Virus record (IMG/VR): IMGVR_UViG_2718218399_000002
From: a virus
Lineage: Duplodnaviria; Heunggongvirae; Uroviricota; Caudoviricetes
Length of the DNA stretch: 39,647 bases
Strand: one strand, 5' to 3'
Shown here: positions 30,001-33,000 of the stretch, piece by piece
Position numbering within the stretch: the stretch's first letter is position 1
How the letters are laid out: the number at the start of each line of letters is the position of its first letter
Position numbers: made by a program

Positions 30001-33000
30001 ATATCTCTGCAGAGCCGGAGGCGTATTTTCGTATTGCACCGGAAGACTGGCTGCGGGCAGAGATGCAGGGGGAGATTGTGGCACTGGTCCACAGTCATCC
30101 CGGTGGTCTGCCCTGGCTGAGCGAGGCCGACCGGCGGCTGCAGATAAAGAGTGCACTGTCCTGGTGGCTGGTCTGCCGGGGGGAAATTCATAAATTCCGC
30201 TGTGTGCCACATCTGACAGGACGGCTCTTTGAGCACGGGGTGACGGACTGTTACACGCTGTTCCGGGATGCATACCATCTGGCGGGAATTGATATGCCGG
30301 ATTTTGAGCGTGAGGATGACTGGTGGCGCAATGGTCAGAACCTGTACCTGGACAATATGGAGGCGACTGGTTTTTACAGGATTTCCCTGCCTTCCGCACA
30401 GCCTGGCGATATCCTGCTGTGCTGCTTTGGCGCATCGGTGGCCAATCATGCCGCCATATACTGCGGCAACGGTGAACTGCTTCACCATCTGCCTGAACAA
30501 CTGAGTAAACGGGAGAGGTATTCCGAAAAATGGCAACGACGAACGCATTCAGCCTGGCGTCACCGCCACTGGCACGTATCTGCCTTCACGGGGATTTACA
30601 ACGATTTGGCCGCCGCCTCAGCCTGTATGTGAACACGGCAGCGGAAGCCATCCGTGCCCTGTCGATGCAGATGCCGGGATTCCGCCGTCAGATGAACGAA
30701 GGCTGGTACCAGATACGTATTGCCGGTGATGACACGGCACCGGAGGCGGTGTACGCCCGTCTTCACGAACAGCTGGGTGAGGGAACGGTCATCCATATTG
30801 TGCCGCGACTGGCCGGGGCCGGAAAGGGTGGACTGCAGATTGTGCTGGGGGCGGCAGCCATCGTGGGCTCTTTCTTCACTGCCGGGGCATCAATGGCGTT
30901 ATGGGGTTCAGCCCTGGCAGCCGGTGGTTTTTCTGCCACCACGATGCTGTTTTCACTTGGAGCCAGCATGATTCTGGGCGGTGTGGCCCAGATGCTGGCC
31001 CCGAAGGCAAAAACACCGGATTACCGCGCAACGGATAACGGCAGACAGAACACGTACTTTTCCTCGCTGGATAACATGATTGCCCAGGGGAACCCGATGC
31101 CGGTGCCTTACGGGGAAATGCTGGTTGGCTCCCGGCGAATCTCCCAGGACATCAGTACCCGTGATGAAGGCGGTGACGGGAAGGTGGTGGTTATCGGGCG
31201 GCAGGCATAAAAGCGAAAAAATCCCGCAGTGCTCACGGACAGGAACTGCGGGAGCGTTACGAAGATTGAGTGTAAGGAATTATTCTTATGTCACGACAAA
31301 AACATTAACTCAGAGAGGGAGGATGTGCCGTTCTTTTCAGGGAGAAAGGATTTATCGTCCTGAGGAATAAAGGTAAGGGGCCCGCCCCTTACCTGACTGA
31401 TTATTGAATGATGCCGCAGGCCATTCTCGCACCACCACCGCCCAGGGGCTCCGGATGGTCATGATGGTTATCACCGCCAGCATGAAGCATGAGAGAACGC
31501 CCTTTAATCTCTTTTAATGAGTTCAGTCTCGGGGCCAGGACCGGGTAGTTCGCTTTTCCGTCATGCGTCACGAACAGCGCAGGGAGGTCGCCCGGGTGTC
31601 CATCCGGAGACCAGGGGCCAAGATGTTTGCCGGTGTTTTTCGGGTCAAAGTGACCGCCAGCCGATAATGCTGCGACCGGTTTTCCGTCTTTCAGTGCCGG
31701 GGCGCAATTTCCTTTTTCGTGCACATGAAAACCATGAATGCCTTCAGACAGAGAGTGAAGGGCTGGTGTGAACAGCAGACCGTAGGGGGTCTCCTGAATG
31801 GTTATTTTTCCAATGCTGACTTCTTTTCCGTCAGCACTGACAAGGTTCATTGGGACTTCCTGTTCTGCTGCGTATCCGCATGATGCTGCTGTCAGCATGG
31901 CAATGGCAGCAATGATTTTACATTTCATAAAACCCTCATTAATTCCGTTAACAGACTGAGCTTGCTGGTTACAGGGTAACAAACAGCGTTCTGATGATAT
32001 CGCGCAATAGCTGTGCAATATCCTATCACTGCGATTAATAATACCAATTGAGAGGAACATTATGGGTAAAGGTGGCGGCAGGGCGCACACGCCGGTTGAG
32101 GCAAAGGACAATCTTAAGTCCACGCAGATGATGAGCGTGATTGATGCCATTGGTGAAGGGCCGATTGAAGGTCCGGTGAAGGGGCTGCAGAGTATCCTGG
32201 TGAACAAAACCCCGCTGACGGACACGGACGGTAATCCTGTGATACATGGTGTGACCGCGGTCTGGCGCGCCGGGGAGCAGGAGCAGACACCACCTGAAGG
32301 CTTTGAGTCCTCCGGGGCGGAAACCGCACTGGGCGTGGAAGTGACGAAGGCAAAGCCGGTGACGCGCACCATTACGTCCGCGAACATTGACCGCCTGCGG
32401 GTCACCTTCGGGGTGCAGTCACTGTTGGAGACCACCTCAAAGGGCGACCGTAATCCCTCTTCTGTCCGACTGCTGATTCAGTTGCAGCGTAACGGTAACT
32501 GGGTGACGGAAAAGGATGTCACCATTAACGGCAAGACCACCTCGCAGTTTCTGGCGTCGGTGATTCTGGATAATCTGCCTCCCCGTCCTTTTAACATCCG
32601 GATGGTCCGGGAGACGGCGGACAGCACCTCGGACCAGCTGCAGAATAAGACGCTCTGGTCGTCATACACCGAAATCATCGATGTGAAACAGTGCTACCCG
32701 AACACGGCGATTGTGGGGCTGCAGGTGGATGCGGAGCAGTTTGGTGGCCAGCAGATGACGGTGAACTACCATATCCGAGGTCGCATCATCCAGGTGCCGT
32801 CAAACTATGACCCGGAAAAACGCACGTACAGCGGCATCTGGGACGGCAGCCTGAAACCGGCATACAGCAACAACCCGGCCTGGTGCCTGTGGGACATGCT
32901 GACTCACCCGCGCTACGGCATGGGAAAACGCCTGGGGGCGGCGGATGTGGACAAGTGGGCGCTGTATGCCATTGCGCAGTACTGCGACCAGATGGTCCCT

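What the first reader, a model, noticed from the sequence alone, without database searches (positions are those of the whole stretch)
31371..32061. Opposite-strand sodC inserted between tail genes I and J
In lambda, I and J are adjacent. Here a complete Cu,Zn-SOD gene with signal peptide and intact metal-binding histidines sits between them on the other strand, isolated by a palindromic hairpin and with its own upstream region (31929-32061). Expression is probably independent of the late operon.
Basis: partly seen in the sequence, partly recalled or inferred. Interest (0 to 1): 0.55.

Follow-up and report, generated by a model that had tools for sequence, protein, structure and literature searches.

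The report
Known prophage sodC gene between tail genes

Summary
A 175-codon ORF (31401-31928, minus strand) lies in an 851-bp gap between tail genes I (ends 31210) and J (starts 32062). It passes the curated SodC thresholds, keeps all seven metal ligands, the catalytic Arg and both disulfide Cys, and has an export leader. A perfect hairpin (31371-31394) follows it.

The stretch 31100-32300 is 100% identical to prophage Sp4 of E. coli O157:H7 Sakai, where the gene is annotated sodC_1 (ECs_1120). These prophage genes are the published sodC-F1/F2 (D'Orazio 2008). That work showed expression in uninduced lysogens, RpoS independence, a dimeric and very stable enzyme, and partial lipidation.

Comparison with sodC-less Stx phages shows a 745-bp module (31317-32061) replacing about 130 bp. 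The module occurs whole in 546 of 5426 complete E. coli genomes. It is far more conserved than the flanking I and J genes. Salmonella Fels-1 carries sodCIII in the same slot and orientation.

Verdict: already known, low interest. One loose end remains. The 106 bp between I and the module (31211-31316) ends in a minus-strand terminator. In sodC-less prophages a good promoter-like site precedes it, so it may be an undescribed small RNA.

The parts
31401..31928 (-). sodC coding sequence, 175 aa plus stop: a prophage Cu,Zn superoxide dismutase identical to Sakai ECs_1120 / sodC_1
   Evidence: ORF and translation. Pfam PF00080 at E 7e-32. NCBIfam NF007628 at 214.9 bits, cutoff 165. PHROG 1975, 'moron ... 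superoxide dismutase precursor'. All ligands conserved. 100% DNA identity to Sakai Sp4.
31869..31928 (-). Export leader, residues 1-20 ([20 protein letters not shown]). It holds a signal-peptidase I site after A20 and a lipobox AASC with Cys17.
   Evidence: Read directly from the translation. LipoP analysis and fractionation show that SodC-F partitions between the periplasm and the membrane (PMC2569942).
31371..31394 (-). Perfect hairpin 6 nt after the sodC stop codon, followed on the minus strand by UUUAUUCCU. It is probably the intrinsic terminator of sodC. On the plus strand it has no U-tract.
   Evidence: Inverted repeat I1, 11+2+11 nt and 100% complementary. Flagged as terminator-like on the minus strand only. 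Retained in the MFE and centroid folds.
31929..32061 (-). Module-specific, AT-rich upstream region of sodC. It holds the SD sequence GAGG (31934-31937). The best but weak promoter candidate is TTGGTA-16-TGnTAGGAT (32047-32020). At its far end it also supplies the plus-strand ribosome-binding site of J (GAGAGGA, about 32049-32055).
   Evidence: Sequence. The strict sigma-70 scan was negative and the relaxed scan gave weak candidates. The 200-nt windows covering this region have G+C 0.435-0.44. This region is absent from sodC-less phages. Promoter activity of the 299 bp upstream is reported in PMC2569942.
31317..32061 (.). The whole 745-bp sodC module (terminator, gene and promoter region). It replaces about 130 bp of unrelated DNA found in sodC-less relatives.
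   Evidence: In the alignment with Stx1a phage 1602, homology ends at 31316 and resumes at the J start codon. The module is found whole in 546 of 5426 complete E. coli genomes. No terminal direct or inverted repeats flank it.
31211..31316 (-). A 106-bp segment between the I stop codon and the module, shared by sodC-plus and sodC-less prophages. It ends in a second, stronger minus-strand intrinsic terminator: stem 31222-31230 / 31245-31253, then AUUUUUUCGCUUUUAU.
   Evidence: Alignment, terminator scan, inverted repeat I2 and fold. In sodC-less phage L002 a promoter-like site, TTCACA-16-AATAAT, points into it.
30530..31210 (+). Tail assembly gene I, the left flank
   Evidence: Pfam Lambda_tail_I at E 1.5e-16, matching residues 15-97 of the 226-aa reading. 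RefSeq annotates a shorter start at 30629.
32062..35535 (+). Tail tip / host specificity gene J, the right flank
   Evidence: Six gpJ-specific Pfam domains and the Sakai annotation ECs_1121.

Best explanation
The feature is a lysogenic-conversion gene (a 'moron'): the prophage-borne sodC known as sodC-F in E. coli O157:H7. It is a self-contained 745-bp module placed antisense to the late operon in the I-J gap of a lambda-like prophage.

In the lysogen the module is transcribed leftward from its own AT-rich upstream region, independently of phage Q and of RpoS. This is shown in the literature, although the exact start site is not mapped. Transcription probably ends at the hairpin 31394-31371, or failing that at the stronger terminator at 31253-31213; this step is inferred.

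The product is exported through its leader. Part is released into the periplasm by signal peptidase I and part is lipid-anchored through Cys17 (literature). There it forms a dimeric, protease- and EDTA-resistant Cu,Zn-SOD. The enzyme removes superoxide outside the cytoplasm and so helps the host bacterium withstand exogenous oxidative stress, for example from host cells.

During lytic growth the Q-modified late transcript must read through the module on the other strand to reach J. J's ribosome-binding site is supplied by the module itself (inferred).
For: Identity of the enzyme: Pfam and NCBIfam scores exceed the curated cutoffs. All Cu and Zn ligands, R168 and the Cys residues are conserved. 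Matches to solved bacterial SodCs reach E 1e-60 to 4e-62, including Salmonella SodCI, 1EQW.

Identity of the locus: 31100-32300 is 100% identical to Sakai Sp4, where the gene is annotated sodC_1. A second copy lies in Sp10 in the same slot and differs by one residue, P112L. [quoted passage not shown]

Module nature: there are sharp homology breaks against sodC-less phages. IMG/VR contigs that carry the exact 30-nt terminator sequence show two gap sizes, about 851 bp in 31 contigs and about 240 bp in 10. The module is present whole in 546 genomes. Between the window and Sp10 there is 1 difference in 880 bp, against 42 differences in gene I and 39 in the first 440 nt of J. A terminator-like hairpin lies on the sodC strand. 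The 5' end and upstream region have lower G+C.

Function and expression come from PMC2569942.
Against: The strict sigma-70 consensus scan finds no promoter in the upstream region, and only weak extended -10 candidates appear. The transcription start is therefore unknown.

The U-tract after the hairpin is short (UUUAUU), so termination there may be leaky.

The window's allele has Pro112 next to Zn ligand His111. The Sp10 copy, Fels-1, Gifsy-2 and Yersinia 2WWN have Leu there, and H. ducreyi has Met. I could not establish which allele was the one purified as SodC-F1.

The paper places the genes in CP-933R and CP-933V of EDL933, whereas the Sakai annotation places them in Sp4 and Sp10. I did not resolve this naming mismatch.
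Confidence: 0.95

Rival explanations
1. The sodC copy is an inactive or decaying passenger: a pseudogene-like remnant, or an allele crippled by Pro112 next to a zinc ligand.
For: P112 is the derived state. The Sp10 copy, Fels-1, Gifsy-2 and Yersinia 2WWN have Leu, and H. ducreyi has Met. The residue adjoins Zn ligand H111. Other genes in the same prophage are pseudogenes, namely tccP2 and espV.
Against: The reading frame is full length and all ligands are intact. The NCBIfam equivalog score is well above its cutoff. The module is at least 99% identical in 541 records. The two tagged copies in O157:H7 accumulate equally. Deleting the prophage copies lowers peroxide resistance.
Confidence: 0.03
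2. The gene serves the phage rather than the lysogen, for example by being expressed mainly on induction to protect the lysing cell or the virions.
For: The gene sits within the late structural region. Induction agents such as H2O2 are oxidative. I found no data on sodC-F expression after induction.
Against: The gene is antisense to the late operon, so late transcription would oppose its expression rather than drive it. The protein is present in uninduced log-phase, stationary and anaerobic cultures and rises in intracellular bacteria. The module is also kept in prophages that are visibly degraded by IS insertions and pseudogenes.
Confidence: 0.03
3. The I-J slot was hit independently by different sodC genes in E. 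coli and Salmonella phages, so it is an insertion hot spot. The alternative is one ancient acquisition that then diverged with the phages.
For: The mature window SodC is 64-69% identical to the Fels-1, Gifsy-2 and Citrobacter prophage SodCs, but 70-72% identical to some chromosomal Pseudomonas SodCs. The clade of all four phage SodCs was recovered in 0 of 100 bootstraps. The non-coding parts of the Fels-1 and Sp4 modules do not align. Gifsy-2 carries sodCI in a different slot, between a lom-like gene and L.
Against: In the point-estimate NJ tree all four phage SodCs fall within a group of 8 of the 80 sequences. Slot and orientation are the same in Sp4, Sp10, Fels-1 and a Citrobacter prophage. 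With about 150 aligned residues the tree is unresolved; the window's nearest neighbours have only 43% support.
Confidence: 0.35

Closest known systems
SodC-F1 / SodC-F2 of E. coli O157:H7 (D'Orazio et al. 2008, PMC2569942); Sakai ECs_1120 in Sp4 and ECs_1989 in Sp10
   Same: It is the same gene. The window is 100% identical to Sakai Sp4 over 31100-32300. The copy in Sp10 differs only by P112L. Leader, lipobox, slot and orientation are all the same.
   Different: Nothing differs at this locus. The rest of the window is not identical to Sakai Sp4: the early region is 90-95% identical and rearranged, so the window comes from a related prophage or strain. I could not determine which of F1 and F2 carries P112.
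SodCIII of Salmonella phage Fels-1 (STM0924)
   Same: It occupies the same slot between I and J on the opposite strand. The protein is 60% identical with all ligands conserved.
   Different: The non-coding parts of the module do not align. Fels-1 lacks both the 106-bp post-I segment and the Sp4 hairpin sequence. Common origin is unresolved.
SodCI of Salmonella phage Gifsy-2 (STM1044), an established virulence factor with a solved structure (1EQW)
   Same: It is a prophage-borne, opposite-strand Cu,Zn-SOD within the tail gene cluster. It is 57-58% identical. It matches the solved structure at E 1e-60. The paper notes parallel regulation and stability.
   Different: It sits in a different slot, between a lom-like gene and L rather than between I and J.
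Chromosomal E. coli SodC (structure 1ESO)
   Same: Same enzyme family and the same periplasmic location. It matches at E 1.6e-55.
   Different: According to PMC2569942 the chromosomal enzyme is monomeric, RpoS-dependent, limited to aerobic stationary phase, less active and less stable. The window protein scores higher against H. ducreyi, Yersinia and Salmonella SodCI structures than against 1ESO.
Classical lambdoid morons such as lom (next gene but one in this window, 35603-36202) and bor
   Same: These are extra genes in the late region of lambdoid prophages. Lambda lom and bor are known to be expressed from the prophage and to change the host cell envelope (my own knowledge). lom here is confirmed by Pfam Ail_Lom.
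   Different: lom is co-oriented with the tail genes, whereas sodC is antisense and carries a terminator-like hairpin of its own.

Membership tests
Cu,Zn superoxide dismutase, bacterial SodC (Pfam PF00080; NCBIfam NF007628) | Profile match above the curated threshold over the full domain | tested here: met
   PF00080 scores 111 bits against a cutoff of 28.9, covering profile positions 3-133 of 133. The NF007628 equivalog scores 214.9 bits against a cutoff of 165, covering positions 2-172 of 172.
Cu,Zn superoxide dismutase, bacterial SodC (Pfam PF00080; NCBIfam NF007628) | Cu ligands (His46, 48, 63, 120) and Zn ligands (His63, 71, 80, Asp83) in human SOD1 numbering | tested here: met
   H68, H70, H93 and H149 align with the Cu ligands; H93, H102, H111 and D114 align with the Zn ligands.
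Cu,Zn superoxide dismutase, bacterial SodC (Pfam PF00080; NCBIfam NF007628) | Catalytic Arg143 and the intrasubunit disulfide cysteines | tested here: met
   R168 and C171 align with human R143 and C146. The partner C75 is invariant in the three prophage SodCs. Its offset from human C57 reflects the longer bacterial loop, which is an inference.
Cu,Zn superoxide dismutase, bacterial SodC (Pfam PF00080; NCBIfam NF007628) | N-terminal export signal and periplasmic location | not testable with these tools
   No signal-peptide predictor was available. Read directly, residues 1-20 have K2 and K4, a hydrophobic core, the site GYA|AE and the lipobox AASC. LipoP analysis and fractionation data are in PMC2569942.
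Cu,Zn superoxide dismutase, bacterial SodC (Pfam PF00080; NCBIfam NF007628) | Superoxide dismutase activity | not testable with these tools
   The literature reports 19,380 U/mg for SodC-F1 against 6,290 U/mg for chromosomal SodC. Which allele (P112 or L112) was assayed is not known to me.
Lambdoid-phage moron (extra, autonomously expressed gene between genes that are adjacent in relatives) | Lies between two genes that are adjacent in related phages, with sharp homology breaks | tested here: met
   Homology to sodC-less Stx1a phage 1602 stops at 31316 and resumes at the J start codon. IMG/VR contigs show two gap sizes, about 240 bp and about 851 bp.
Lambdoid-phage moron (extra, autonomously expressed gene between genes that are adjacent in relatives) | Own transcription terminator | tested here: met
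   There is a 10-11 bp GC-rich hairpin with a U-rich tail on the sodC strand. This is a pattern-level result; 3' ends have not been mapped.
Lambdoid-phage moron (extra, autonomously expressed gene between genes that are adjacent in relatives) | Own promoter | tested here: inconclusive
   The strict sigma-70 scan found 0 sites. The relaxed scan gave only weak candidates, the best being TTGGTA-16-TGnTAGGAT. The literature reports activity of a lacZ fusion carrying the 299 bp upstream.
Lambdoid-phage moron (extra, autonomously expressed gene between genes that are adjacent in relatives) | Expressed from the repressed prophage | not testable with these tools
   The literature shows tagged SodC-F present in uninduced log-phase, stationary and anaerobic cultures and in intracellular bacteria.
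Salmonella prophage SodCI / SodCIII lineage | Forms a clade with Fels-1 and Gifsy-2 SodCs to the exclusion of chromosomal SodCs | tested here: inconclusive
   In the NJ bootstrap, Fels-1 pairs with the Citrobacter prophage SodC at 94%. The clade of all four phage SodCs appears in 0 of 100 replicates and window+Fels-1+Citrobacter in 7 of 100. The window's neighbours are unresolved.

The most novel reading that the evidence does not exclude
The 106-bp segment kept between gene I and the sodC module (31211-31316) may be the body and terminator of an undescribed leftward small RNA of about 105 nt that is common in E. coli lambdoid prophages.

In sodC-less prophages a 10/12 sigma-70-like promoter (TTCACA-16-AATAAT) precedes it, and its hexamers are invariant in the 11 loci compared. 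The predicted RNA folds better than shuffles (z = -2.97) and ends in a canonical intrinsic terminator. The adjacent promoter-bearing DNA is found in 1660 of 5426 complete E. coli genomes and is unannotated in the rows listed.

In the window, the sodC module has replaced exactly the promoter side. The RNA would then be made only as a read-through 3' UTR of sodC, which would couple it to sodC expression, or not at all.
Probability: 0.2. Interest if true: 0.4.

Novelty: already known. Interest (0 to 1): 0.12.

Why it matters
Prophage-borne periplasmic SODs are a textbook case of lysogenic conversion. They give enteric pathogens a more stable, constitutively available defence against external superoxide. 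For this locus that is already established, so the finding adds no new biology.

What this analysis adds is modest:
- Precise module boundaries, 31317-32061.
- Evidence that the module moves or is homogenised between prophages as a unit: 1 difference in 880 bp against 6-9% divergence in the flanking tail genes.
- The module is carried by about 10% of complete E. coli genomes.
- The neighbouring 106-bp segment may be an unrecognised small-RNA gene whose promoter the module displaced.

Tried and rejected
1. Rfam search of the gap. The only hit on the sodC strand was a 23-bit match to STnc400 (gathering score 80) over the sodC 3' end and hairpin; the other sub-threshold match, snoRNA sR35 (16.9 bits), lies on the other strand. 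STnc400 does not appear at the sodC loci of Gifsy-2, Fels-1 or the Citrobacter prophage, so I rejected it as chance. Nothing was found in the sodC-less gap.

2. Known EHEC prophage small RNAs. The AgvB/AsxR/EcOnc set lies at the PR' moron site, not in the I-J gap. No EcOnc peak is listed at Sakai coordinates 1.2024-1.2033 Mb, and no ECs1118-1121 entry appears in the supplements. Pas sRNAs lie near the Q and lysis genes. A literal search of the literature for the terminator sequence gave nothing.

3. Signature of a mobile element. No target-site duplication or terminal inverted repeats flank the module. Transposition is therefore rejected in favour of illegitimate or homologous module exchange.

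4. The 19-nt, 84% complementarity between the 106-bp segment (31227-31245) and the sodC coding sequence (31821-31839) is no better than several other pairs in the same 921 bp. I treat it as chance.

5. Phylogeny to decide between one or several captures of sodC by phages was unresolved.

6. The long mechanical ORF 31401-32435 (344 aa from GTG) is rejected as the gene. The Met at 31928 is preceded by an SD sequence, begins the leader peptide and matches the family profile from residue 2.

7. The 44-aa plus-strand ORF 31229-31363 crosses the module boundary and is not kept in the current Sakai annotation. I reject it as a gene.

8. I could not establish which of SodC-F1 and SodC-F2 corresponds to the P112 allele.
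Full report
**Observation.** The window holds a 175-codon ORF on the minus strand at 31401-31928. It lies between two plus-strand tail genes. The left gene ends at 31210 and matches Pfam Lambda_tail_I. The right gene starts at 32062 and matches six gpJ-specific Pfam domains. The I-J gap is 851 bp.

The ORF matches Pfam Sod_Cu at E 7e-32. It matches the NCBIfam SodC equivalog at 214.9 bits, above the 165-bit cutoff. It also matches PHROG 1975, filed as 'moron ... superoxide dismutase precursor'. Against solved structures it matches the bacterial SodCs of H. ducreyi, Yersinia, Salmonella SodCI (1EQW) and E. coli (1ESO) at E 4e-62 to 2e-55.

Every functional residue is present in the window protein: H68, H70 and H149 (Cu), H93 (bridge), H102, H111 and D114 (Zn), R168 and C171. 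C75 is invariant among the prophage SodCs.

It is terminator-like on the sodC strand only and persists in the MFE and centroid folds. The 133-bp upstream region is real and AT-rich, with G+C about 0.44 against 0.55-0.63 in the flanks.

**What it is.** The stretch 31100-32300 is 100% identical to prophage Sp4 of E. coli O157:H7 Sakai and to many other O157:H7 genomes. There the gene is annotated sodC_1 / ECs_1120, between 'tail assembly protein' and 'host specificity protein'. Sakai carries a second copy, ECs_1989, in the same slot of prophage Sp10. It differs by one residue, P112 in the window against L112 in Sp10.

[quoted passage not shown] That paper shows the following:
- The tagged proteins accumulate in uninduced cultures in log phase, in stationary phase and anaerobically, and increase relative to chromosomal SodC in intracellular bacteria.
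- Expression from a 299-bp upstream fragment is RpoS-independent.
- The leader is processed partly by signal peptidase I after residue 20 and partly by signal peptidase II at the lipobox AASC. The enzyme therefore partitions between the periplasm and the membrane.
- SodC-F1 is dimeric, three times more active than chromosomal SodC, and resistant to proteinase K and EDTA. It melts at 78-87 °C.
- Mutants are more sensitive to H2O2.

**Anatomy of the module.** I aligned the window with a sodC-less relative, Stx1a phage 1602 (locus L002). Homology runs through gene I and 106 bp beyond its stop codon, to 31316. It then breaks and resumes at the J start codon. A 745-bp module (31317-32061) thus stands in place of about 130 bp of unrelated DNA. 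This is a swap rather than a clean insertion.

No terminal direct or inverted repeats flank the module. Its right end supplies J's ribosome-binding site.

The module alone is found whole in 546 of 5426 complete E. coli genomes, at 722 places. It is at least 99% identical in 541 records. The hosts include O55:H7, O145 and O111:H8 strains and isolates from dog, chicken, giant panda, river and seawater.

Among IMG/VR contigs that carry the post-I terminator sequence, 31 have the sodC-size gap and 10 the short gap. One shows a duplication of gene I. In another an IS66-family element has inserted near the module's left edge.

Between the window and Sp10 there is a single difference in 31187-32066. 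Gene I has 42 differences and the first 440 nt of J have 39. The module is therefore exchanged or homogenised between co-resident prophages as a unit.

**Mechanism: shown and inferred.** Shown in the literature: expression in the lysogen independent of RpoS and of induction, export, partial lipidation, the dimeric stable active enzyme, and a contribution to peroxide resistance.

Shown here: the gene is antisense to the late operon, and all catalytic residues are intact. A terminator-like hairpin lies on its own strand, and the module boundaries are defined.

Inferred:
- The promoter lies in the 133-bp module-specific region. The strict consensus scan found none. The best weak candidate is TTGGTA-16-TGnTAGGAT at 32047-32020.
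- Termination occurs at the hairpin. Its U-tract is short (UUUAUU), so some read-through to the stronger terminator at 31253-31213 is plausible.
- During lytic growth, Q-modified polymerase reads through the module on the plus strand, where the hairpin has no U-tract, in order to express J.

**Comparison with known systems.** Salmonella phage Fels-1 carries sodCIII in exactly the same slot and orientation. A Citrobacter prophage does the same. Gifsy-2 carries sodCI between a lom-like gene and L. These proteins are 57-63% identical to the window's.

Outside the coding region the Fels-1 and Sp4 modules do not align. A species-level scan of genomes shows that the other close relatives, at 59-70% identity, are SodC genes of Serratia, Pantoea, Pseudomonas and others. 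None of them has tail-gene homologues (I, J, L) or lom within 5 kb.

A neighbour-joining tree pairs the Fels-1 and Citrobacter prophage SodCs at 94% bootstrap. It does not resolve whether the window's SodC shares their origin. One capture and several captures both remain open.

**Context.** Overall the window is a relative of Sakai Sp4, not an identical copy. The late region 18560-39647 is 99.8% identical. The early region is 90-95% identical and rearranged, and the ISEc8 insertion of Sakai is absent.

PMC2569942 names the host prophages CP-933R and CP-933V in EDL933. The Sakai annotation places the two copies in Sp4 and Sp10. I did not reconcile the names.

**Loose end.** The 106 bp between gene I and the module (31211-31316) is shared by sodC-plus and sodC-less prophages. 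It ends, on the minus strand, in a canonical intrinsic terminator.

In the sodC-less allele a 10/12 promoter-like site (TTCACA-16-AATAAT) points into this segment. Its hexamers are invariant in the 11 loci compared. The predicted RNA of about 105 nt folds better than shuffled sequences, with z = -2.97. The promoter-bearing DNA is present in 1660 of 5426 E. coli genomes and is unannotated in the rows listed.

I found no Rfam family, no EcOnc peak and no literature match for this segment. It may be an undescribed small RNA whose promoter the sodC module displaced. This rests on pattern matches only, and I put it at about 20%.

**Verdict.** The feature is already known and experimentally characterised, so interest is low.

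Noticed in passing
window 31211-31316 (minus strand); L002:3108-3247: A conserved 106-bp segment after the I stop codon ends in a strong minus-strand intrinsic terminator. In sodC-less prophages a 10/12 sigma-70-like promoter precedes it, and the predicted RNA of about 105 nt folds with z = -2.97. It may be an unannotated small RNA. In the window the sodC module has replaced its promoter side.
   Followed up: partly
window 31594 (codon 112 of sodC): The window and Sakai Sp4 allele has Pro112 directly after Zn ligand His111. Sp10, the Stx2a phages EH2201 and EH1846, Fels-1, Gifsy-2 and Yersinia have Leu. This is the only difference between the two O157:H7 copies. Its functional effect is unknown.
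   Followed up: partly
window 31187-32066 versus L088 (Sakai Sp10): The I-J gap and its sodC module show 1 difference in 880 bp between two prophages. Their flanking I and J genes differ at 6-9% of positions. This points to exchange or homogenisation at module level.
   Followed up: yes
window 30530 / 30629: RefSeq starts gene I at 30629 (193 aa). The 226-aa reading from 30530 overlaps K, as I recall it does in lambda. It is needed to cover the Pfam Lambda_tail_I match, which begins at residue 15. The longer start looks right.
   Followed up: partly
window 37976-38889 (minus strand): This is the tccP2 effector locus, with 6.3 tandem copies of a 141-nt (47-aa, proline-rich) repeat. It is split into two overlapping ORFs, so it is apparently a frameshifted pseudogene as in Sakai. 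BLAST offsets against Sakai suggest that the window has one more repeat unit.
   Followed up: partly
window 1-18560: The early and lysis region is only 90-95% identical to Sakai Sp4. It is rearranged: the lysis genes are inverted relative to Sakai and flanked by IS629 pieces. It also lacks Sakai's ISEc8 insertion, so the window comes from a related prophage rather than from Sakai Sp4 itself.
   Followed up: partly
window 6848-7022, 9938-10184, 10958-11130, 14012-14128: Rfam gathering-level hits elsewhere in the window: a sok antitoxin RNA, three tRNAs, the prophage sRNA STnc100, and an ALIL frameshift pseudoknot. The pseudoknot lies on the minus strand inside the IS629 / IS3-family element.
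   Followed up: no
window 36261-37580: The side tail fibre ORF has a long run of collagen-like Gly-X-Y repeats ([22 protein letters not shown]...) and a 45-nt tandem repeat at 37212-37302.
   Followed up: no
L002:3285-3308 (sodC-less Stx1a phage): The short I-J allele carries a plus-strand intrinsic terminator (ACAGGCATCC-TCCG-GGATGCCTGT, then TGTTTTTGTG) about 30 nt upstream of J, inside the late operon. The sodC allele lacks it. Its stem positions vary among loci.
   Followed up: no
L115 and L128 (IMG/VR contigs): L115 has an IS66-family transposase inserted at the position equivalent to window 31328, at the left edge of the sodC module. L128 has a tandem duplication of gene I ahead of the module, which could be real or an assembly artefact.
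   Followed up: partly
L005:1385-1663 (Fels-1): The Hfq-binding sRNA isrG (290 bits) lies inside the Fels-1 side tail fibre gene, about 4.3 kb from sodCIII.
   Followed up: no
L006 (SFGJ01000116.1): A 3.4-kb contig labelled as a Clostridiales MAG carries this E. coli sodC module at 99% protein identity, with the I and J flanks. It is most likely a mis-binned contig.
   Followed up: no
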